Shown one piece after another: positions 30,406 through 56,333 of a stretch of 64,000 nt of DNA. A program made the position numbers and the translations under genes. Each line of letters starts with the position of its first letter. Within the stretch, counting starts at the first letter, position 1. The notes under the pieces are model-generated. The model saw only the letters and a list, made by a program, of their open reading frames with translations, did not search any database and was not told where the DNA came from. Source of the DNA: a virus (taxonomy: Duplodnaviria; Caudoviricetes); the IMG/VR virus record IMGVR_UViG_3300026442_000101. One strand, written 5' to 3'.

Positions 30406-30933
30406 TCAGTTGACCCGAAGGATCACTTGATCACGACCACCGCGTTGAGCCAGCCATTCGTAGAACTGCGTATACTTCATATTGCAGAAGAAGTAACTGG
30501 CATCGTCGACGATGATGAGCTTTGCTGGGGGAATAGGATCGGGCAGACCTTTCTTCCGATGCAGGATCGAGCGCTTTACTTCGTATGGCGTACACACACG
30601 AACGCTTTCTAATTCTGCACGGGGATACCCGATGAAATCAGGGTTCTCGTTCGCACAGTTCTGGATCAGCATCTTCTTGATCCTGAGGTTCGGTACGATG
30701 TAGAGCGCCTCACCTACCAGGTTGAAGATCTGAGCCAAAGCTCTGGTACGGCCGGTCTGACGTGGGACGAAGAACCCCACAGTCTTCCAGTCACGCAACC
30801 AGATGTCGTCTGGAGGAGCTGCCCTTCTGTACTGTTCCTCGAACCACTCCTGTTCGGCGTGGAATGGCGCCAGCAGGCTCTGTACCATCTCCTTCGGATT
30901 GAAGGGAGGTTGTGAGACCGTTTTCTTACTCAT
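30406..30933 (-). CDS. small P-loop NTPase-like protein
   Basis: PRQTGRT Walker A-like and IIVDDA Walker B-like. Confidence 0.6.
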   Translation of the reverse strand: MSKKTVSQPPFNPKEMVQSLLAPFHAEQEWFEEQYRRAAPPDDIWLRDWKTVGFFVPRQTGRTRALAQIFNLVGEALYIVPNLRIKKMLIQNCANENPDFIGYPRAELESVRVCTPYEVKRSILHRKKGLPDPIPPAKLIIVDDASYFFCNMKYTQFYEWLAQRGGRDQVILRVN

Positions 30934-31349
30934 CTTGTAATCTCGCCTTTATATTCAAACGGTAAGTTCGCCTTCTCAGCGATCTTCCGTAAAACGTTTA
31001 TGCTTAAGTGTCGGTGACAGAACTTACCGGGACTACAATAGCACGCAATGGCCACCTCACTGTCTCGTCCCAATTCGAGCAGATCGTAGAAAGACCGACG
31101 CCAACTACCGTACCGATCGCGTAATAGCGCTAGGTATTGTTCGGTATACATCTCGTCGGTTATGAGCTCGCCCTTGTGGTTCATGACCATCGTCCAAGTG
31201 GGTGCGAGAAACTCGTACTCCACAGCTGACTTTACCGTGGTATCGGCCAGGATGATTCCCCTATCCTGCACCAGTCTCCACTGGCTAATCTGCGCTGTCC
31301 AAAAGGCCATGCTAAGCTCCGGTATTCTCTGACATACATTTGCCAGCAT
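30930..31349 (-). CDS. DUF488-like protein
   Basis: ACYCSPGKFCHRHL motif. Confidence 0.6.
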   Translation of the reverse strand: MLANVCQRIPELSMAFWTAQISQWRLVQDRGIILADTTVKSAVEYEFLAPTWTMVMNHKGELITDEMYTEQYLALLRDRYGSWRRSFYDLLELGRDSEVAIACYCSPGKFCHRHLSINVLRKIAEKANLPFEYKGEITR

Positions 31350-31397: not shown

Positions 31398-31530
31398 TAG
31401 GCCCCGAGCGGGAGATTTGAACTCCCCACCAACTAATAAACGACGGACACGGGAAAGTGCGTCAGGCATGAAACCCTTTCCAGTATATCGTATCGCAGTT
31501 CGCCGGAGTAGCGCCAGCCGCTAGCCAGGG
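31398..31530 (-). ncRNA. tRNA-scaffold RNA NC1 (133 nt): acceptor, D-like hairpin, long insert, T arm, G-CCTA end
   Basis: Acceptor CCCTGGC/GCTCGGG; T arm GGGAG-TTCAAAT-CTCCC. Confidence 0.55.
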
Positions 31531-31963: not shown

Positions 31964-32115
31964 TAGGTCTCCAACATACCCAGTGTATCGCCTATTGTAT
32001 TGTTGAGCGGTCGCAGTTAGGATTTCGGGTCGTACCTAAATTTTCCCCATTGCTGGGCGATGTCCTGATGTAGCGTTTTGGACGATTGCGACACTTTAGC
32101 GATACCACGTTGGAA
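31964..32115 (-). ncRNA. structured RNA NC7 (152 nt) closed by an acceptor-like stem, ending A-CCTA
   Basis: TTCCAACGT/ATGTTGGAG, GTATCGC/GCGATAC, GTCGCA/TGCGAC, CCCA-GCAA-TGGG, TTAGG/CCTAA. Confidence 0.55.
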
Positions 32116-32117
32116 AA

Positions 32118-32245
32118 TAGGTCTCCACCCGTGTTTTCGAGACACGGACCTCACTCATGTACCTGATCCACGCCGAACCCCGAAGGGATGGGCATGTTCG
32201 GAATCGAACCGAAAGAGTGCGCTCTACCATCTGAGCTAGGCGGAG
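32118..32245 (-). ncRNA. tRNA-scaffold RNA NC2 (128 nt) with permuted mini-tRNA in the anticodon arm
   Basis: Acceptor CTCCGCC/GGTGGAG, D arm, stem CACTC/GAGTG around 58-nt insert holding a second T arm. Confidence 0.7.
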
Positions 32246-32252
32246 ATAAAAC

Positions 32253-32978
32253 TTACGCGCAGCGGTAGTTCGGGTTCTCGAGAACAACCTCGAGGTCGAA
32301 GAACAGCTCGGTCTTGATGCTGGACGGCACGGTGATGGAAAGCAAGGCGCGCTCAGGATCTACCTTCAGGTAGATGTCTTCAGCACCAGGGATGCTGAGG
32401 GTGTAGTTCTGAGTACGCTGACCTTCGATCTGCTTGATAGCAGAGAGGTCATGGGACAGCTTGATACCATCGGCCGTGCGGACGTTGTTGAAGCGGATAG
32501 CGCCGACGCTGTCGGTCAGATCCAACACGCTGGGATCGCCGAAGCCGAACACGTTGAACTTACCATCGACCAACGGCAGGTTCTTGGCTTCGAGGCGACG
32601 CTCGGTAGCGCGGCCAATGCGACGACGCAGGACAGTGGAGTACTTGTCCATGAACGCGCCTTGCTGCATCATCATGTCTACATCGAGATCGGAAAGACCT
32701 TCAGGCTTGGCGCCCTGACCCACGTTGTAGAGGAACGAGCACAGACCTTTGTGACGCGCGGTCAGTTGCGCTTGCTCGATAATCATGCGCTGGACATGCG
32801 CCGGGCGGCTGTCGATGTGACCGAGCGGCAAGTGATCTTTCAGGAACTGCTCTTCCGATTGCCAGGTTACGTTGCCGGCTTCGTCTTTGACGTTGTAGCC
32901 AGGCTTACCATCTTCGCCGGATTGAGACGACCAGGCGAGGACAGTAACGTTCTTGTTCACCAGATAGTTCTGAGTCAT
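32253..32978 (-). CDS. multidomain hypothetical protein with crAss001_48-like helical hairpin
   Basis: QRMIIEQAQLTARHKGLCSFL...QQGAFMDKYSTVLRRRI pattern. Confidence 0.7.
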   Translation of the reverse strand: MTQNYLVNKNVTVLAWSSQSGEDGKPGYNVKDEAGNVTWQSEEQFLKDHLPLGHIDSRPAHVQRMIIEQAQLTARHKGLCSFLYNVGQGAKPEGLSDLDVDMMMQQGAFMDKYSTVLRRRIGRATERRLEAKNLPLVDGKFNVFGFGDPSVLDLTDSVGAIRFNNVRTADGIKLSHDLSAIKQIEGQRTQNYTLSIPGAEDIYLKVDPERALLSITVPSSIKTELFFDLEVVLENPNYRCA

Positions 32979-33006: not shown

Positions 33007-33095
33007 TAGGGCGTTCCTCGTGGATTTGAACCACGGACCTTCGGCGTGTCTTTTAGCTAAGGGGCCGACGCTCTAACCAGCTGAGCTAAGGAACG
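33007..33095 (-). ncRNA. tRNA-scaffold RNA NC3 (89 nt) with 18-nt anticodon loop
   Basis: All four tRNA stems perfect; loop CCCTTAGCTAAAAGACAC; ends C-CCTA. Confidence 0.75.
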
Positions 33096-33099
33096 AGAA

Positions 33100-33213
33100 T
33101 AGGGGCTTCCTCGAAGAATCGAACTTCGGACTTCCGCCAGGTATGGTGAGCCTGCCCCATTTAAGGGGCCAGGAGGCTCGAAGACGGCACTCTACCAACT
33201 GAGTTAAGGAAGC
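33100..33213 (-). ncRNA. tRNA-scaffold RNA NC4 (114 nt) with 44-nt hairpin insert replacing the anticodon loop
   Basis: GCTTCCT/AGGAAGC, CCGTC/GGCGG, CGAAG-TTCGATT-CTTCG; ends C-CCTA. Confidence 0.75.
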
Positions 33214-33220
33214 ATGTAGC

Positions 33221-33496
33221 TTAAAGCAAACCTTCCGAGATCATGAACTGTTCGAGGTCATCAAAGAAACCATCGTACAGGATTTCGGTACCGGCAAAAC
33301 CTTTCCAGCGCCACCACTTAGGTTCTTTACCCATAGCGGTGATGCTTTCTTCGGTTTGCTTTCTGAAGAAATTACCGACCTTATCGAACGCAACGAGGTC
33401 GGTGGTGTAGAGATCCCCGTGGACGTGCAGCAGCCTGATTATCTTGGCTTCCAGTTCTGGACTAACCTCGAGTTCTTTCAGTTGCTTATTGCGCAT
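33221..33496 (-). CDS. hypothetical protein, 91 aa (start reassigned to MRNK)
   Basis: The longer start overlaps the NC5 RNA. Confidence 0.7.
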   Translation of the reverse strand: MRNKQLKELEVSPELEAKIIRLLHVHGDLYTTDLVAFDKVGNFFRKQTEESITAMGKEPKWWRWKGFAGTEILYDGFFDDLEQFMISEGLL

Positions 33497-33512: not shown

Positions 33513-33664
33513 TAGGGAGCACTGACTGGAATTGAACCAGTGACCTTCGTCAAGTTGGCCTTACGCTCTAACCAACTGAGCTAATCACCCATACGGGCGA
33601 TGCCGGACTCGAACCGGCGACCTTAAGGGAGGGACGACGCTCTACCAAACTGAGCTACAGTGCT
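33513..33664 (-). ncRNA. nested double tRNA NC5 (152 nt): outer tRNA containing a complete circularly permuted tRNA
   Basis: Outer AGCACTG/CAGTGCT and TCGTC/GACGA; inner GGGTGAT/ATCGCCC and TAAGG/CCTTA; two D arms, two T arms; ends C-CCTA. Confidence 0.85.
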
Positions 33665-33670
33665 ATTGAA

Positions 33671-33821
33671 TAGGTAACTCTAGCAGGGAATCGAACCCGC
33701 TGCCTTCCTCATGTTTGCGTCTACCAATTCCGCCATTGGCCGATAGTGCCGGCCAAGCAGGACTCGAACCTGCAATCCTTTTCAGGAAGGTGAGGACGCT
33801 CTACCAATGAGCTACAGAGTT
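33671..33821 (-). ncRNA. nested double tRNA NC6 (151 nt): outer tRNA containing a permuted Leu-type tRNA lacking its anticodon arm
   Basis: Outer AACTCTG/TAGAGTT and TCCTC/GAGGA; inner CGGCCAA/TTGGCCG, D arm TGGCGGAATTGGTAGACGC; ends A-CCTA. Confidence 0.8.
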
Positions 33822-33823
33822 AG

Positions 33824-34122
33824 AATAAGCGCCTGGGGAGGACATTCCCCAGGTCTTGCCACTAATTACCCTAGTGGCCAAGGTGCCTTCATATCGCTTC
33901 AGGCAGGTTTGCGCGGTACTAGCTAGTGTCTGACCATGCTAGAACAGTGCTCGGCATGTGCGGCGCTGGCGCTTCCCTGATAACTCAAAGCCAACAGACT
34001 GGCTCCTCGTCGTCGTAGGGTCTAATGTAACTACAAAGCCTTACGTGCAGCTATAGCGCCTCGGGTAGGGAGGGCACGGGGCTAGGATCTTAGGCTTGGC
34101 ATAGGAGTACCGAGCTTCTGAT
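33824..34122 (-). ncRNA. candidate ~300-nt structured ncRNA
   Basis: No credible ORF; hairpins GCCACTAG/TTAGTGGC, CCTGGGG/CCCCAGG; flanked by tRNA-Gln and NC6. Confidence 0.4.
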
Positions 34123-34123
34123 T

Positions 34124-34201
34124 TGGCAGGGGTAATTGGATTCGAACCAATGATCGCGGCGTCAAAGGCCGCTGCTTTAGGCCAGGCTAAGCTATACCCC
34201 G
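34124..34201 (-). tRNA. trnQ: tRNA-Gln(UUG)
   Basis: GCGGC-CTTTGAC-GCCGC anticodon arm, TTCGAAT T loop, encoded CCA. Confidence 0.9.
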
Positions 34202-34209
34202 ATTGAAAA

Positions 34210-34285
34210 TGGCTCCACGACCTGGACTCGAACCAGGGACAGGCGAATTAACAGTCCGCTACTCTACCGACTGAGTTATCGTGGA
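34210..34285 (-). tRNA. trnN: tRNA-Asn(GUU)
   Basis: GCGGA-CTGTTAA-TTCGC, acceptor TCCACGA/TCGTGGA, CCA. Confidence 0.92.
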
Positions 34286-34361
34286 ACAAAGGGTGACCCT
34301 CCAGCCGATCTACGGCTAGTTAAGCGCGCTGCGTAATACGCTGCCTGGCAAGGGTCGTAAA

Positions 34362-34445
34362 TGGTGGATGGGGAAGGATTCGAACCTTCGAAAAATTAAT
34401 GGCGGCTTTACAGGCCGCTCCCTTTGACCTCTCGTGAACTCATCC
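34362..34445 (-). tRNA. trnY: tRNA-Tyr(GUA)
   Basis: GCGGC-CTGTAAA-GCCGC, long variable arm, CCA. Confidence 0.9.
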
Positions 34446-34454
34446 AGATGCAAG

Positions 34455-34530
34455 TGGTAGTACCGAGTGGGATGGAACCACCGACCTTATCCTTATCAGG
34501 GGTGCGCTCTACCAGCTGAGCTACGGCACT
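34455..34530 (-). tRNA. trnI: tRNA-Ile(GAU), possibly degenerate
   Basis: CTGATAA loop, CCA; anticodon stem CACCC/GGATA has 2 mismatches and T loop is TTCCATC. Confidence 0.7.
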
Positions 34531-44317: not shown

Positions 44318-46381
44318 TTACGCGACTTTCGAATTGCCGTGCAGTTCGAACCACCGGTCAGTAGTTTCGGTGATGTGCTGATCGACCTTCGCACAGATGT
44401 CGGTGTGGTTAGGATCAACCACGAAACCGCCATCCATGAAGATCGGTTTCAGCAGACCAGACTTGACGTGGATCTCGGCGATCTTCATATCTTGCTCTTG
44501 GTTGAGCACGATACCTTCATCGCTGTCGATCAGCGCCAGCAGGCCTTTGGCCGACTTCTTCAGACCGTCACCGGTGGCTGGGTCTTTGTACAGCTCGACC
44601 ATCTCACCATTGACCATGGTCGCGGTAGCCTTAACGGCAATGCCGAAGGTATCGCGAGTCAGGTAGTTGTAGGTGTAGGAGCCGACGCCGAACACGACGT
44701 TGCACGATGCGAAACCTTTGATCGCCAGACGACGGCAGATTTCTTCAGCGCGGTGTACGGTGATGGAATCGCCGTAGATCAGGCCGATGCGTTCGTGCAG
44801 AACTTTGTAGCCGCGTTCGGTTTCGGTACCGCCGAAGGTTTCCCACAGCAGCTCGATGGCACCCTTCTCTTGCGCCGACAGCTCGACCTGTTCGATCTTG
44901 TAGCCGTTGCGGTAAGTGCCCTTACCCATGACCATGACTTCGACACCGCGCAGCTCGAGCAGGTCATGCAGCTCACGATACGCTTTGAAGCGGACCGGGT
45001 CGGTGCAATCGGCGCTGATCGGGAACGGGTAGTCGAACAGGGCGGCGGAGCCCATCACGTCGGTCATCAGTTCGTCGTAGTAGCTGTGATCAACCGCAGG
45101 CAGATCGGCCTTGACCTGACTGATGGTGCGGGAGATCGCTTTACCGGCGATACTGGTGGCTTTGTGAATCTTGCCTTCCGGATCTTTGAAGTAGACGAAC
45201 TCCGGCTTGTAGTTCACCATCTGAGCTTCGGCAGCAAGCTGGTCCAGGATTTCCACGCCGCAGATGATTTCTACAGGATCGCCCGAGTCAGGACGGATGA
45301 CCAGCTTGGCCATGCCGTTCTCGTCAGGCAGACGAGCCAGGATCTCTTCCTTCAGCGAAGGCAGGACCGAGGTCAGTACGCCAAAGAAGTCGAAGCTGTC
45401 GCACACCAGGCCCAGCATGCCGGTCTTGAACTTGACGGTCAACATTTCCTTGATGAAGCCACGCTCTGCTTCCAGGCGCATGCCTTTCAGTTCAGAGAGC
45501 AGCTCTTCTTCGGTAGCGCCTTCGGCTCGACGAGCCTTGACCATCTGACGCAGCCGACTCAGGATGTTCGCGGTTGCCACCGAGTGCTCAGTCGCAGGAA
45601 TGGTACCTGCGATCATCACCTTCTCGGCATCGCCGTTGTACATCTGCTCGATGTAGTCGATGGCCGGCATGGTATCACTGCCGGTGAACACGCGCAGGTG
45701 AGCCGCGCCGCAACGAGCGCCATCTTCCATACCCGACATGCCACGGTACGAGAAGTCGTGAGCCTGGAACTTGACGAAGTCGGTAGGCACGCCGGTGATC
45801 TTGGCCCACTTGGTCAGGACGCGACGGTACTCGAACGCAATGGTGCCGACGGTAACCTGTTTCCAGGTCATGTTCGACATGATGGTTTCGAGGAACTCGG
45901 CCAGCCAGAAGAACTCGGAGCCTTCATCGATGACATTACCGTTGCTGTCGTAGATGACGTACATAGGCACGCCAATCGGCAGACGGGTACCTTCTTCCAC
46001 GCCCAGGATACGCAGCGGCAGGTGACCGATATCGTGCAGGTTGGCAAGGGACTTGGCCGATACCTTGTCTTTGCCGATGTAGGTGTCGCAGCGGCGCTTG
46101 AACTTGTAGAGCACGTCGGACTTCGGCTTGCTGAAGAAGCTCTCTTCCCACATGCTGACGATTTCATGCAGCGCGGCTACGTGACCGGTGACCAGGATCT
46201 TACGGTCCCACATCGAACTACAACTCGGCGATCGAGCGAAGATCTTGTCGCTACGCGCGGTGCTGTTGGCGTAGAGGAACGACGAACCGTCGGGATACAT
46301 CGGACCATGGCCTTGTTTGTAGCCATCGGTACCGGTAGGGCCGAACATCTTGAAAGCTTTGAACAGTTTCTTGAGAGACAT
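44318..46381 (-). CDS. nadV: nicotinamide phosphoribosyltransferase-like (NAMPT/Namat) with insertions
   Basis: TDGYKQGH, HDFSYRG, IPATEHS, IRPDSGDP, LIYGDSIT, KKSAKG. Confidence 0.95.
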   Translation of the reverse strand: MSLKKLFKAFKMFGPTGTDGYKQGHGPMYPDGSSFLYANSTARSDKIFARSPSCSSMWDRKILVTGHVAALHEIVSMWEESFFSKPKSDVLYKFKRRCDTYIGKDKVSAKSLANLHDIGHLPLRILGVEEGTRLPIGVPMYVIYDSNGNVIDEGSEFFWLAEFLETIMSNMTWKQVTVGTIAFEYRRVLTKWAKITGVPTDFVKFQAHDFSYRGMSGMEDGARCGAAHLRVFTGSDTMPAIDYIEQMYNGDAEKVMIAGTIPATEHSVATANILSRLRQMVKARRAEGATEEELLSELKGMRLEAERGFIKEMLTVKFKTGMLGLVCDSFDFFGVLTSVLPSLKEEILARLPDENGMAKLVIRPDSGDPVEIICGVEILDQLAAEAQMVNYKPEFVYFKDPEGKIHKATSIAGKAISRTISQVKADLPAVDHSYYDELMTDVMGSAALFDYPFPISADCTDPVRFKAYRELHDLLELRGVEVMVMGKGTYRNGYKIEQVELSAQEKGAIELLWETFGGTETERGYKVLHERIGLIYGDSITVHRAEEICRRLAIKGFASCNVVFGVGSYTYNYLTRDTFGIAVKATATMVNGEMVELYKDPATGDGLKKSAKGLLALIDSDEGIVLNQEQDMKIAEIHVKSGLLKPIFMDGGFVVDPNHTDICAKVDQHITETTDRWFELHGNSKVA

Positions 46382-46408
46382 GTTACGTCCTTGCTTGCGG
46401 GTGGGTGT

Positions 46409-47266
46409 TTAAACTTCGAGCCAGTGGTAGCCTTCGCGCACTTCGCCGTCAGGGCAGAGCGGGCCACGTCCTTTACCGTGGAACGAGTTGGTGCTGTAGA
46501 TCGCATCGAAATACTTCGGCATTTCGTCGTAGCCGTGGCTGAAGATGCCGTGGGTTACGAACAGCGACATGTACTTAGCGCCTTTCTCACGCAGCTTCTT
46601 GGAAAGCTCCATGAAGGTACGGCCGCCATCACAGATGTCGTCGAAGATGATGACATTCTTGCCATCAACATCACCGTAGATCTCGGTGTGGGAGATCTTG
46701 CCGGTAGCTGGGTCACGGTGCTTACTGGCCACGATGACTTCAGACGCCTTGAGCTCTTTGGCGTACTGGTAGGTCTTCTTGAGCGCACCGGCATCAGGAG
46801 CGATCAACACCAGACCTTCGGGCAGGTGGAGCTTACCGATGTACTCCAGGGCGCTGACGTTGACACAGTTGTTGATACCGGTCATGGCGCCTTCGGAGTG
46901 AGCGTCCACGATGGTCACGGTTTCCGCATTGATCGAATTGATCATCTGCCCAACCACTGCCAGCGACAGAGCCTCGCCTTCGTTGCAGACGCGGTCCTGA
47001 CGAGCGTACGGCAGGTACGGGATGAACAGACGTACTGCACAGCCCGGCCAGCGGCGACGCACAGCGTCAGCGGTGAGCATGAGACCGATCAGCAGGTCGG
47101 AGCTGCTGAGGTGGGCTACGATGGTCACGTCAGGACGGATCATCGGTGCATCGCATGGATCGAGTTTGACATCGATCTCACCGCCCGGGAACTTGCCAAT
47201 CTTGACAGCGATGTCGCGGGACATTACGCCAGTGGCGAAGTTCATGGTGGCAATTACTTTGATCAT
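46409..47266 (-). CDS. prs: ribose-phosphate pyrophosphokinase-like (PRPS/Adps)
   Basis: FPGGE, PYLPYARQDR, APDAGA, DDICDGGRTF, THGIFS. Confidence 0.95.
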   Translation of the reverse strand: MIKVIATMNFATGVMSRDIAVKIGKFPGGEIDVKLDPCDAPMIRPDVTIVAHLSSSDLLIGLMLTADAVRRRWPGCAVRLFIPYLPYARQDRVCNEGEALSLAVVGQMINSINAETVTIVDAHSEGAMTGINNCVNVSALEYIGKLHLPEGLVLIAPDAGALKKTYQYAKELKASEVIVASKHRDPATGKISHTEIYGDVDGKNVIIFDDICDGGRTFMELSKKLREKGAKYMSLFVTHGIFSHGYDEMPKYFDAIYSTNSFHGKGRGPLCPDGEVREGYHWLEV

Positions 47267-55877: not shown

Positions 55878-56333
55878 TTACCAGTCGTACACGTAGAGCG
55901 TATCGGTAACGTTGTTATCACCGAACCGTGCTTCGATCAAAGGCCTGACCTCGGTCCTGTAATCCAACGTCCCCGTCGTTTCGCCACATCCGATCCTCGG
56001 GATATGACACTCCGTGATTAGATTCTGCTCCATGTACTTATCGAGCCGCGCCAGCGTTACCTTGATGAGATCAGGAACGGATGGATCAGGCCAATGGTAC
56101 TTGGTAGGAAGGAACGCTAAGGTGAATGCATCAACCTCGTAAGTTACGAGTTCGCCCGTTGCGATCCGGCCTCGTCTACATGCCTTGACGTAGTGCTCGT
56201 GAGCTTTCTTCCAGCGCTCCCGCATGTAACAGGCAAGGCCTTTACCAGCCACGCCTACGGTGTTTACCGGAATGCCTACGAGCGAGCCTTTAGGGGCCAG
56301 CTTCAGCATGTCTCCTTTTATATCGACAAGCAT
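55878..56333 (-). CDS. DarG-like macrodomain (ADP-ribosylhydrolase fold)
   Basis: PVNTVGVAGKGLA, LPTKYHW, IPRIGCG..G.LD. Confidence 0.85.
   Translation of the reverse strand: MLVDIKGDMLKLAPKGSLVGIPVNTVGVAGKGLACYMRERWKKAHEHYVKACRRGRIATGELVTYEVDAFTLAFLPTKYHWPDPSVPDLIKVTLARLDKYMEQNLITECHIPRIGCGETTGTLDYRTEVRPLIEARFGDNNVTDTLYVYDW

What the first reader, a model, noticed from the sequence alone, without database searches (positions are those of the whole stretch)
33513..33664. Complete circularly permuted tRNA nested in the anticodon arm of another tRNA (152 nt, two tRNA lengths)
Minus strand reads: AGCACTG-D arm-TCGTC [CCTC] CCTTA-AGGTC-T arm(GCCGG TTCGAGT CCGGC)-ATCGCCC-G [TAT] GGGTGAT-D arm-TAAGG [CCAACTT] GACGA-AGGTC-T arm(ACTGG TTCAATT CCAGT)-CAGTGCT-C-CCTA. 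The order is 5'A, 3'B, 5'B, 3'A. Read as two tandem genes, neither acceptor nor anticodon stem pairs. Read as nested, all eight stems pair (only one G-U), and the two anticodon stems are joined head-to-head by a 4x7 internal loop. The inner start GGGTGATTAGCTCAG resembles bacterial tRNA-Val(UAC) as I recall it. Established: permuted tRNAs are known from some algae and archaea, where splicing endonuclease processes them; I do not know of them in phages. The 11 junction nucleotides are too few to rebuild two 7-nt anticodon loops.
Basis: seen in the sequence. Interest (0 to 1): 0.9.

Follow-up and report, generated by a model that had tools for sequence, protein, structure and literature searches.

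The report
Conserved phage tRNA-inside-tRNA mimic RNA
A soil jumbo phage encodes conserved ~150-base RNAs that fold as one tRNA body whose anticodon loop is replaced by a second, inside-out tRNA body; they cannot read codons, look like two-headed tRNA mimics of a design not found in the literature or Rfam searched here, and their function is still unknown.

Summary
On the minus strand, 33517-33664 (plus a CCTATTC trailer) reads 5'A-3'B-linker-5'B-3'A. All eight stems pair only in the nested register: 24/24 long-range pairs, against 6/24 for the tandem register, and 0 of 200,000 shuffles reached 24.

Five related phage contigs carry orthologs. The nested model pairs 100% of cells, with 12 pairs changed on both sides. 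The tandem model fails (10-48% in the distinguishing helices). Independent assemblies from four runs cross the locus unchanged, so it is not a misassembly.

Two more nested units in the window (33675-33821 and 32122-32245) pass the same test. They belong to a family of anticodon-less tRNA-body RNAs that all end N73-CCU, next to four normal CCA-ending tRNAs in a phiKZ-like jumbo phage.

It is not a permuted tRNA gene of the algal/archaeal kind. There is no 7-nt anticodon loop, the junction is 4 x 7-9 nt, and there is no BHB motif. The closest known relative is the permuted tRNA-like module of YrlA Y RNAs, but the Ro-binding motif, a neighbouring rsr gene and the Rfam threshold are all missing.

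My best reading is a non-decoding, two-elbow tRNA mimic that acts by binding tRNA-recognising proteins. The partner is unknown. This scan had already noted the same design on other jumbo-phage DNA.

The parts
33513..33664 (-). Nested unit 2 (the finding): outer tRNA body + inner permuted tRNA body + N73 C + CCTA
   Evidence: Sequence parse; 24/24 long-range pairs; 100% pairing and 12 covarying pairs in 6 orthologs; model R1 scores 170 bits here and 173-193 bits in orthologs
33658..33664 (-). Unit 2 outer acceptor 5' strand (pairs with 33518-33524)
   Evidence: 4 of 7 pairs change on both sides among orthologs, e.g. AGTCCAT/ATGGACT in L008
33633..33637 (-). Unit 2 outer anticodon-stem 5' strand (pairs with 33547-33551)
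   Evidence: 2 of 5 pairs covary: TCGTC/GACGA, ACGCC/GGCGT, TCGCC/GGCGA
33629..33632 (-). Junction loop J5 (CCTC; CCAC or ACTC in relatives)
   Evidence: Always 4 nt, with no G and no partner in J3
33595..33628 (-). Inner tRNA 3' half: anticodon-stem 3' strand CCTTA, variable loop AGGTC, T arm, acceptor 3' strand
   Evidence: Rfam YrlA model positions 23-85 match 33561-33626 at 37.7 bits; parse
33591..33594 (-). Linker closing the inner acceptor stem (G73-like + TAT; 9 nt in relatives)
   Evidence: Length 4-9 nt and sequence not conserved
33559..33590 (-). Inner tRNA 5' half: acceptor 5' strand GGGTGAT, D arm, anticodon-stem 5' strand TAAGG
   Evidence: Inner acceptor has 3 covarying pairs; always 7 bp
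33552..33558 (-). Junction loop J3 (CCAACTT; 8-9 nt in relatives)
   Evidence: Length varies from 7 to 9 nt, with no U33/R37 pattern
33517..33551 (-). Outer tRNA 3' half: anticodon-stem 3' strand, variable loop, T arm, acceptor 3' strand, N73 = C
   Evidence: Outer T stem has 3 covarying pairs. The 15:48 tertiary pair reads G:C in four sequences, A:U in L007 and C:A in L008
33510..33516 (-). Conserved trailer CCTATTC
   Evidence: Present after every anticodon-less unit in the window and in relatives; the normal tRNAs encode CCA
33668..33821 (-). Nested unit 1: outer tRNA body enclosing a permuted tRNA-Leu-like body (T arm, closed 7-bp acceptor, Leu-type D arm; no inner anticodon stem in the window), N73 A + CCTATTC
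   Evidence: 100% of 210 cells paired with 12 covarying pairs, 6 of 7 in the inner acceptor; tandem model 43-48%; R1 74-91 bits
32115..32245 (-). Nested unit 3 (reduced): outer tRNA body enclosing a T arm plus a 6-bp acceptor hairpin capped by an invariant CCC-TTCG-GGG, N73 A + CCTATTT
   Evidence: 100% of 192 cells paired, 13 covarying pairs
33104..33213 (-). tRNA body with a 44-nt hairpin insert in place of the anticodon loop, ends C-CCTATTC
   Evidence: Rfam tRNA 48 bits with 41 nt in place of 4; fold; orthologs
33011..33095 (-). tRNA body with an 18-nt loop in place of the anticodon loop, ends C-CCTATTC
   Evidence: Rfam tRNA 54.7 bits; ARAGORN reports 'tRNA-???'
34124..34530 (-). Four ordinary decoding tRNAs of the same operon (Ile-GAT, Tyr-GTA, Asn-GTT, Gln-TTG), all with encoded CCA
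   Evidence: ARAGORN and Rfam

Best explanation
The locus encodes a stable, non-decoding RNA of about 150 nt made of two complete L-shaped tRNA bodies joined head-to-head. The outer body has a normal open acceptor end. Its anticodon loop is replaced by a circularly permuted inner body whose acceptor stem is closed by a short linker. This is the layout of the tRNA-like module of YrlA Y RNAs, with a second tRNA body in place of the Ro-binding stem. The fold, its conservation under selection and the lack of any anticodon loop are shown. The rest is inferred. Host tRNA enzymes would mature the RNA: RNase P at the outer 5' end, then trimming of the CCU-AUUC trailer. RNase P may also cut at the 7-bp inner acceptor, followed by CCA addition, as happens with M. 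smegmatis YrlA. The RNA would then act by presenting two tRNA elbows and acceptor arms to a tRNA-recognising protein, either as a bivalent decoy (sponge) or as a tether. The setting is phage-host conflict: it is one of at least five paralogous anticodon-less tRNA-frame RNAs in an operon that lies among anti-defence genes. The partner protein is unknown.
For: Fold: 24/24 nested pairs against 6/24 tandem, with 0/200,000 shuffles reaching 24. Across six orthologs, 100% pairing and 12 covarying pairs in unit 2, 12 in unit 1 and 13 in unit 3. The tandem models fail. The outer 15:48 tertiary pair changes on both sides in two orthologs: A:U in L007, a canonical alternative, and C:A in L008, which is not. 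DNA order: contigs from four runs span the locus, and five related contigs have the same order. Non-decoding: the junction loops are 4 nt and 7-9 nt, vary in length and lack U33/R37. ARAGORN and Rfam tRNA at gathering threshold do not call it. YrlA-like inner module: RF02553 positions 23-85 match at 37.7 bits. Processing precedent: the 7-bp acceptor hairpin of M. smegmatis YrlA is cut by RNase P and gains CCA in vivo (PMC4201824); the inner acceptor here is 7 bp in all unit 1 and unit 2 orthologs. Family and setting: the anticodon-less units end N73-CCTA and the four decoding tRNAs end CCA. Neighbouring genes include Sequestin, an NAPRTase + Prs-like pair and a Macro domain.
Against: There is no expression or end-mapping data. 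The RNA-library runs are available only as contigs that assemble tens of kilobases of phage, so they cannot show transcription or processing. No partner protein was identified, and the flanking proteins are orphans. In unit 3 the inner acceptor is capped by an invariant UUCG hairpin, and in the window unit 2's linker is only 4 nt. Both argue that the closed, uncleaved form may be the functional one. The anti-defence role rests on neighbourhood only.
Confidence: 0.55

Rival explanations
1. It is a Y RNA in the strict sense: the RNA binds a Ro60/Rsr protein of the phage or host and tethers it to another factor, as YrlA does.
For: The inner module matches the YrlA covariance model (37.7 bits). 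Some jumbo phages encode a TROVE protein with a tRNA-like partner (PMC7824862). Only 64 kb of a ~248-kb genome could be inspected.
Against: The GNCGAAN0-1G motif is absent from the 5' strand and occurs in only 3 of 12 units, always in the 3' part. No ORF of 300 aa or more in the window has a TROVE hit. TROVE is absent from the related contigs and from phage pPa_SNUABM_DT01, with a working positive control. The score is far below the 69-bit gathering threshold. According to PMC7824862, phiKZ-like (group 1) jumbo phages rarely carry RNA-repair modules.
Confidence: 0.1
2. It is a two-piece, double-acceptor tRNA. [quoted passage not shown]
For: The inner acceptor keeps exactly 7 bp plus an unpaired N73-like base in all unit 1 and unit 2 orthologs despite heavy sequence turnover. 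M. smegmatis YrlA is a precedent. Both bodies keep the elbow nucleotides.
Against: No recognisable anticodon-independent identity set is present: there is no G3:U70, no long variable arm in unit 2, the Leu-like inner body has G73 rather than A73, and the outer body has C73 without G-1 (identity rules are from my general knowledge). The outer ends encode CCU, not CCA. Unit 3 is permanently capped.
Confidence: 0.1
3. The tRNA-like units are cis-acting punctuation: RNase P/Z cleavage sites and exonuclease blocks that cut and stabilise the small mRNAs interleaved with them. The nested inner bodies would have no function of their own.
For: Units abut genes tightly. Unit 3 starts 8 nt after the Sequestin stop codon, the 18-nt-loop tRNA ends about 35 nt before the Sequestin start, and unit 2 precedes a 91-aa ORF. 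The shared CCTATTC trailer could be a processing signal.
Against: This does not explain why inner bodies keep D, T and 7-bp acceptor stems through many compensatory changes, or why plain tRNAs would not serve. In relatives, units 1 and 2 and the insert tRNAs follow each other with no gene between them.
Confidence: 0.12
4. It is a split/permuted pre-tRNA in the algal/archaeal sense. Cleavage at the junction and ligation would release two decoding tRNAs, an intron-containing outer one and a permuted inner one.
For: The gene order 3' half then 5' half is that of permuted tRNA genes, and phages can encode RNA ligases (PMC7824862).
Against: The 11-13 junction nucleotides cannot supply two 7-nt loops. 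The loops vary in length and lack U33/R37. The junction is a 4 x 7-9 internal loop, not a 3-4-3 bulge-helix-bulge. No ligase, RtcB or endonuclease family was found in the window. Sister units carry inserts (an 18-nt loop, a 44-nt hairpin, a capped minihelix) that cannot be read as tRNAs at all.
Confidence: 0.03
5. It is an accident: a recent half-swap recombination between two neighbouring tRNA genes, pseudogenes, or an assembly artefact.
For: Tandem tRNA genes share D- and T-arm sequences that could mediate recombination or confuse assemblers. Contigs of relatives often break inside this cluster.
Against: The same order appears in independent assemblies and in five diverged relatives whose neighbouring protein is 51-76% identical. 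Dozens of compensatory changes keep only the nested pairing.
Confidence: 0.02

Closest known systems
YrlA-type Y RNA-like RNAs of bacteria and phages (Rfam RF02553; Chen et al. 2014, PMC4201824)
   Same: Both have a circularly permuted tRNA-like module in the order (V)-T arm-closed acceptor hairpin-D arm, whose 'anticodon stem' continues into another helix. The elbow nucleotides are kept. With a 7-bp acceptor, the module is a substrate for RNase P and CCA addition in M. smegmatis. The module occurs in phages.
   Different: Here the module sits on the anticodon stem of a second complete tRNA body instead of a Ro60-binding stem. There is no conserved GNCGAAN0-1G motif, no rsr gene nearby, and the score (37.7 bits) is far below the 69-bit gathering threshold. 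In a sample of viral contigs, all 8 closed-acceptor junctions were of the plain-stem YrlA layout and none was nested.
Circularly permuted tRNA genes of Cyanidioschyzon merolae, some green algae and Thermofilum pendens (Soma et al. 2007; Chan et al. 2011; from my own knowledge)
   Same: The 3' half is encoded upstream of the 5' half, with the acceptor strands joined by a short intervening sequence.
   Different: Those genes keep an intact anticodon loop, form a BHB motif cut by the splicing endonuclease, pass through a circular intermediate and yield decoding tRNAs. Here there is no anticodon loop, no BHB motif and a bacterial-virus setting.
Two-piece (permuted) tmRNA genes of alpha-proteobacteria and cyanobacteria (Keiler et al. 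2000; from my own knowledge)
   Same: A permuted gene order places a T arm and acceptor 3' strand upstream of the acceptor 5' strand, and processing gives two base-paired pieces.
   Different: There is no tag reading frame, no pseudoknots and no G3:U70. ARAGORN, which finds permuted tmRNAs, reports none.
tRNA scaffolds carrying cargo in the anticodon arm (the engineered Ponchon-Dardel scaffold; natural tRNA-linked viral RNAs such as the MHV68 tRNA-miRNA units; from my own knowledge)
   Same: A tRNA frame provides processing and stability while the anticodon position or flank carries another structured RNA. The sister units here carry a 44-nt hairpin or an 18-nt loop at that position.
   Different: The scaffolds are artificial or eukaryotic-viral. 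Here the cargo is itself a tRNA body, and the whole family is conserved in a phage operon.
Phage T4 stable RNAs species 1 and 2 (rnaC, rnaD) in the T4 tRNA cluster
   Same: They are non-tRNA stable RNAs of unknown function encoded inside a phage tRNA operon, and rnaC ends with a T arm.
   Different: Neither folds as two tRNA bodies.

Membership tests
YrlA / Y RNA-like (RF02553) | tRNA-like module in the order T arm - acceptor-like hairpin - D arm | tested here: met
   cmscan matches model positions 23-85 at 33561-33626, 37.7 bits, E 3e-6; the stems covary
YrlA / Y RNA-like (RF02553) | Score at or above the Rfam gathering threshold (69 bits) over the full model, including the Ro-binding stem | tested here: not met
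   37.7 bits, and only positions 23-85 of 114 are matched
YrlA / Y RNA-like (RF02553) | GNCGAAN0-1G Ro60-binding motif near the 5' end (PMC4201824) | tested here: not met
   The motif occurs in only 3 of 12 units, at positions 114-119, i.e. in the 3' part (outer anticodon-stem 3' strand plus variable loop); it is absent from the 5' strand
YrlA / Y RNA-like (RF02553) | Encoded within ~4 kb of a Ro60/Rsr (TROVE) gene on the same strand | tested here: not met
   No TROVE hit in any flanking ORF or in any ORF of 300 aa or more in the 64-kb window; none in three related contigs. The rest of the ~248-kb genome could not be searched.
Circularly permuted tRNA genes (algal/archaeal type) | 3' half encoded upstream of the 5' half, with the acceptor strands facing each other | tested here: met
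   Parse of the inner unit
Circularly permuted tRNA genes (algal/archaeal type) | Intact 7-nt anticodon loop (U33, purine 37) recoverable after processing | tested here: not met
   The junction loops are 4 nt and 7-9 nt, variable in length, with C33-type sequence
Circularly permuted tRNA genes (algal/archaeal type) | Bulge-helix-bulge motif at the processing junction for the splicing endonuclease | tested here: not met
   By inspection, the junction is an asymmetric internal loop between two 5-bp stems
Canonical decoding tRNA (RF00005) | Single cloverleaf at or above the 29-bit gathering score, with an anticodon | tested here: not met
   Only partial hits of 25-27 bits covering the D to T arms without acceptor or anticodon stems; ARAGORN makes no call
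Two-piece tmRNA | tRNA-Ala-like acceptor (G3:U70) plus a tag reading frame | tested here: not met
   ARAGORN finds no tmRNA; the acceptor pairs at position 3:70 are C:G or G:C
Group I intron in a tRNA anticodon loop | Intron of 200 nt or more with a group I core | tested here: not met
   The insert is about 81 nt and there is no Rfam intron hit at E<=10

The most novel reading that the evidence does not exclude
The phage makes a family of bivalent tRNA decoys. Each nested RNA presents two tRNA bodies at a fixed spacing and, lacking any anticodon loop to cut, traps a dimeric tRNA-targeting immune effector (an anticodon nuclease or an acceptor-end-modifying toxin) or another two-tRNA-binding machine. 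This would be an RNA-based anti-defence principle not described so far.
Probability: 0.2. Interest if true: 0.92.

Novelty: new variant of a known kind. Interest (0 to 1): 0.8.

Why it matters
tRNA detectors miss these genes, and a genome annotator would leave them blank or call them broken tRNAs. Yet three paralogous tRNA-in-tRNA RNAs are kept under strong structural selection in a jumbo-phage lineage. They extend the repertoire of natural tRNA mimicry from one permuted tRNA-like module on a stem (YrlA) to two complete tRNA bodies fused through their anticodon stems. They also show that phages use the tRNA frame as a scaffold for different cargos at the anticodon position. If the RNA turns out to be a decoy or tether for tRNA-recognising proteins, it would be a new RNA-based player in phage-host conflict. 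If it is opened and charged, it would be a new kind of two-piece tRNA. In either case the covariance model built here makes the class searchable.

Tried and rejected
(1) No whole genome is held for this window, so Ro60, RtcB, RNA ligase and CCA-enzyme genes outside the 64 kb could not be searched.

(2) The metagenome scan with the neighbouring protein returned only the contig already known.

(3) The invariant unit 2 motif gave two hits in bacterial genomes; both are chance matches inside coding sequence.

(4) The unit 1 junction pattern gave six further viral contigs. Five are ordinary tandem tRNA genes with CCA, mostly tRNA-Leu; L016 is odd and was not followed up.

(5) Model R1 gave a 156-nt hit in Pseudomonas phage pPa_SNUABM_DT01 and ~150-nt hits in L012, L014, L016, L027, L056 and L132. 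All are ordinary tandem tRNAs.

(6) T4 rnaC and rnaD, suspected from their ~140-nt size, are not double tRNAs.

(7) Laying public runs on the locus: all runs are kept as contigs, and the RNA libraries assemble 20-40 kb of phage, so nothing can be said about transcription, ends or joints of the RNA. No joint was seen.

(8) The TROVE search of three related contig fragments and one distant cultured phage was negative, but these are fragments or distant relatives.

(9) PHROGs and protein-atlas searches of the flanking orphan proteins gave nothing usable.

(10) Protein searches for a close cultured relative found none better than about 30% identity.

(11) Comparing the inner 5' half with E. coli tRNAs gave generic Lys/Val/Ile matches. 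The outer 5' half gave none.

(12) A resemblance of CCAACUUGAC to the Y RNA 3'-strand motif, and of CCUCCCUUA to the 16S 3' end, was considered and dropped because relatives do not keep either.

(13) Pairing of J3 with the inner D loop, seen in the single-sequence MFE fold, is not conserved in relatives.

Full report
**What is there**

On the minus strand the window carries a tRNA operon from about 34530 down to 32115. It starts with four ordinary tRNAs: Ile-GAT, Tyr-GTA, Asn-GTT and Gln-TTG, all with encoded CCA. A conserved ~270-nt unassigned RNA follows. After that come RNAs that ARAGORN and the Rfam tRNA model at gathering threshold either miss or call oddly.

In order, the parts are:
- outer acceptor 5' strand, outer D arm, outer anticodon-stem 5' strand TCGTC;
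- four nucleotides, CCTC;
- inner anticodon-stem 3' strand CCTTA, inner variable loop, inner T arm, inner acceptor 3' strand;
- a G+TAT linker;
- inner acceptor 5' strand, inner D arm, inner anticodon-stem 5' strand TAAGG;
- seven nucleotides, CCAACTT;
- outer anticodon-stem 3' strand GACGA, outer variable loop, outer T arm, outer acceptor 3' strand, N73 = C, then CCTATTC.

**Is it more than chance, and is it real DNA?**

In the window sequence alone, the four long-range helices pair 24/24 in the nested register and 6/24 in the tandem register. None of 200,000 shuffles of those strands reached 24 (mean 9.5, maximum 19). The single-sequence MFE fold recovers the outer acceptor, both T arms, the inner acceptor hairpin and the outer D arm.

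Contigs from three RNA-library runs and one DNA run of soil samples cross the whole locus with no difference or joint in the nested units. Five related contigs have the same order. Misassembly is therefore excluded for practical purposes.

**Conservation and covariation**

I found relatives through the downstream protein (32253-32978). They are L001/L002, L003, L007, L008 and L009, with that protein 76 to 51% identical.

On an alignment of six unit 2 orthologs, the nested model pairs 252 of 252 cells. Twelve pairs change on both sides: four in the outer acceptor, two in the outer anticodon stem, three in the inner acceptor and three in the outer T stem (0/500 shuffles). The rival model of two independent cloverleaves pairs only 10-48% of cells in its four distinguishing helices.

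The outer 15:48 tertiary pair reads G:C in four sequences, A:U in L007 and C:A in L008. The L007 change is a canonical alternative and supports a true L-shaped fold of a body whose D arm and variable loop lie about 90 nt apart in the sequence.

**It is a family**

The stretch just upstream (33675-33821) is a second nested unit. Its inner body is tRNA-Leu-like, with the D arm TGGCGGAATTGGTAGACGC. It gives 100% of 210 cells paired and 12 covarying pairs, six of seven in the inner acceptor; the tandem model gives 43-48%.

A third, reduced unit lies after the next gene (32122-32245). Its outer tRNA body encloses a T arm and a 6-bp acceptor hairpin capped by an invariant CCC-UUCG-GGG. It gives 100% of 192 cells paired and 13 covarying pairs.

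Two further units are tRNA bodies with a 44-nt hairpin (33104-33213) or an 18-nt loop (33011-33095) at the anticodon position.

All five units end N73-CCTA, usually CCTATTC, in the window and in relatives. All decoding tRNAs end CCA. First-stage notes of this scan on the same window list the same family and two more degenerate candidates that I did not verify.

**What it is not**

- *Not a decoding tRNA or a precursor of two.* The junction strands are 4 nt (CCTC, CCAC, ACTC) and 7-9 nt (CCAACTT, CTACACTT, CCAAACTT, CCACAACTC). They contain no G, cannot pair with each other, vary in length, and lack the U33/purine-37 pattern.
- *No splicing junction.* The junction is an asymmetric internal loop between two 5-bp stems, not a bulge-helix-bulge.
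- *No RNA-repair enzymes found.* No RNA ligase, RtcB, CCA enzyme or TROVE protein was found in any flanking ORF or in any ORF of 300 aa or more in the window.
- *Not a tmRNA* *and not a group I intron*.

**What it resembles**

In E-value mode, Rfam aligns positions 23-85 of the YrlA model (Y RNA-like, RF02553) to 33561-33626 at 37.7 bits. That stretch is the inner T arm, closed acceptor hairpin and D arm.

Chen et al. 2014 (PMC4201824) define YrlA by this module plus two other features: a 5' GNCGAAN0-1G Ro60-binding motif and an rsr gene within about 4 kb. They also warn that dimeric tRNAs can be false positives.

Here the acceptor strands of the module do pair and covary, so it is not a tandem-tRNA artefact. 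But the Ro motif is not conserved: it occurs in 3 of 12 units, always in the 3' part. No rsr gene is nearby, related contigs lack TROVE (positive control working), and the score is well below the 69-bit threshold. So it works like a YrlA tRNA-like module but is not a member of that family.

Of 141 junctions, 8 have 7/7 complementary acceptor strands, against about 0.15 expected by chance. All eight fold as the classical YrlA layout on a plain long stem, and none sits inside a second tRNA body.

A covariance model of unit 2 (R1) scores unit 2 orthologs at 170-193 bits and unit 1 at 74-91 bits. Its other hits of about 150 nt are ordinary tandem tRNAs, including one in the closest cultured phage, pPa_SNUABM_DT01.

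Full-text searches for permuted tRNA with phage, YrlA with tRNA-like, tRNA-like with jumbo phage, and tRNA mimic with decoy found no description of a tRNA nested in a tRNA.

This scan's earlier reports describe the same design in other jumbo phages. I did not re-test those.

**Context**

The window belongs to a phiKZ-like jumbo phage. It has four phiKZ internal-head-protein paralogs and an S80 prohead protease, and its own protein lies on a 248-kb contig. It comes from soil.

The operon lies among nucleotide-metabolism genes and genes with an anti-defence flavour:
- Sequestin (PF21825), described as a sponge for immune signalling nucleotides in bioRxiv 10.1101/2025.07.12.664507;
- an NAPRTase-family plus Prs-like pair, which from my own knowledge resembles the NARP1 NAD-reconstitution pathway;
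- a Macro domain.

The decoding tRNAs of the operon and its relatives include Tyr, Asn, Asp and His. From my own knowledge, these are the GUN-anticodon set attacked by colicin-E5-type anticodon nucleases.

**How it most likely works**

Shown:
- a conserved RNA fold with two complete tRNA bodies joined through their anticodon stems by a C/U/A-rich internal loop;
- one open (outer) and one closed (inner) acceptor end;
- no anticodon.

Inferred:
- The outer 5' end is made by RNase P, and the CCU-AUUC trailer is removed by host 3' processing.
- The inner acceptor is kept at exactly 7 bp with an unpaired N73-like base in units 1 and 2, so it is a plausible second RNase P/CCA-enzyme site, as in M. 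smegmatis YrlA. That would give a two-piece RNA held together by the two anticodon stems and the outer acceptor.
- Against this, the UUCG cap of unit 3 and the 4-nt linker of unit 2 in the window favour a closed form.

Either way the molecule can only act through recognition of its tRNA-like surfaces. I therefore read it as a bivalent tRNA mimic that sequesters or tethers a tRNA-recognising protein, probably in phage-host conflict. Confidence is about 0.55 for the mimic-by-binding reading and near certainty for the fold. The rivals are a strict Y RNA, a chargeable two-piece tRNA, cis-acting punctuation, a spliced permuted pre-tRNA, and an accident. Each is listed in Rival explanations with its evidence.

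**Verdict**

The RNA is a new variant of a known kind, a YrlA-type permuted tRNA-like module fused to a second tRNA body. It is conserved, under clear selection and invisible to standard annotation. Its function is unproven, and no expression data could be obtained.

Noticed in passing
window 33830-34100 (-); orthologs L001:4900-5190, L007:215-490, L009:690-960: A conserved ~270-nt RNA-like stretch lies between tRNA-Gln and nested unit 1. It has no Rfam match, is predicted to be highly structured, and ends in a GC-rich hairpin followed by GCGCTTATTC, which resembles the CCTATTC trailers. It varies too little for covariation support (2 covarying pairs).
   Followed up: partly
window 44318-47266 (-): An NAPRTase-family protein (687 aa) sits next to a Prs-like phosphoribosyltransferase (285 aa). 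From my own knowledge this pair resembles the phage NARP1 NAD+ reconstitution pathway. Sequestin (32253-32978), a Macro domain (55878-56333) and DUF488-N3a (30930-31349) are nearby.
   Followed up: partly
IMG/VR loci L128, L117, L086, L069, L067, L060, L054, L043: In a truncated sample of viral contigs, 8 of 141 short T-arm-to-D-arm junctions have perfectly complementary acceptor strands. All fold as YrlA-like permuted tRNA modules on a plain long stem, so such modules are common in uncultured phages.
   Followed up: partly
window 33221-33496 (-): A 91-aa orphan ORF sits between nested unit 2 and the 44-nt-insert tRNA in this phage only. In L001, L003, L007 and L009 the two RNAs are adjacent, so the ORF looks like a lineage-specific insertion into the RNA operon.
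   Followed up: no
window 31398-31530 and 31964-32115 (-): First-stage notes list two further degenerate acceptor-closed elements ending in CCTA-like trailers. I read the sequence but did not test them. No Rfam or R1 hit supports them.
   Followed up: partly
L016:10023-10079 (-) (IMGVR_UViG_640196209_000005): A T arm, a 6/7-complementary closed stem and a Leu-type D arm lie next to two normal tRNAs, followed by sequence that is not tRNA-like. This may be another permuted tRNA-like module.
   Followed up: no
L001:5286-5416, L007:578-708, L009:1043-1173, L003:53-183, L008:617-759: Relatives carry an extra tRNA body with an insert of about 60 nt at the anticodon position, plus an extra tRNA-His(GTG). 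The window phage lacks both, so the content of the anticodon-less family varies between relatives.
   Followed up: partly
L007, L008 contig ends: Contigs of two relatives break inside the tRNA-like cluster, about 1.2 kb upstream of the Sequestin gene. The repeated tRNA-body sequences probably confuse short-read assemblers.
   Followed up: no
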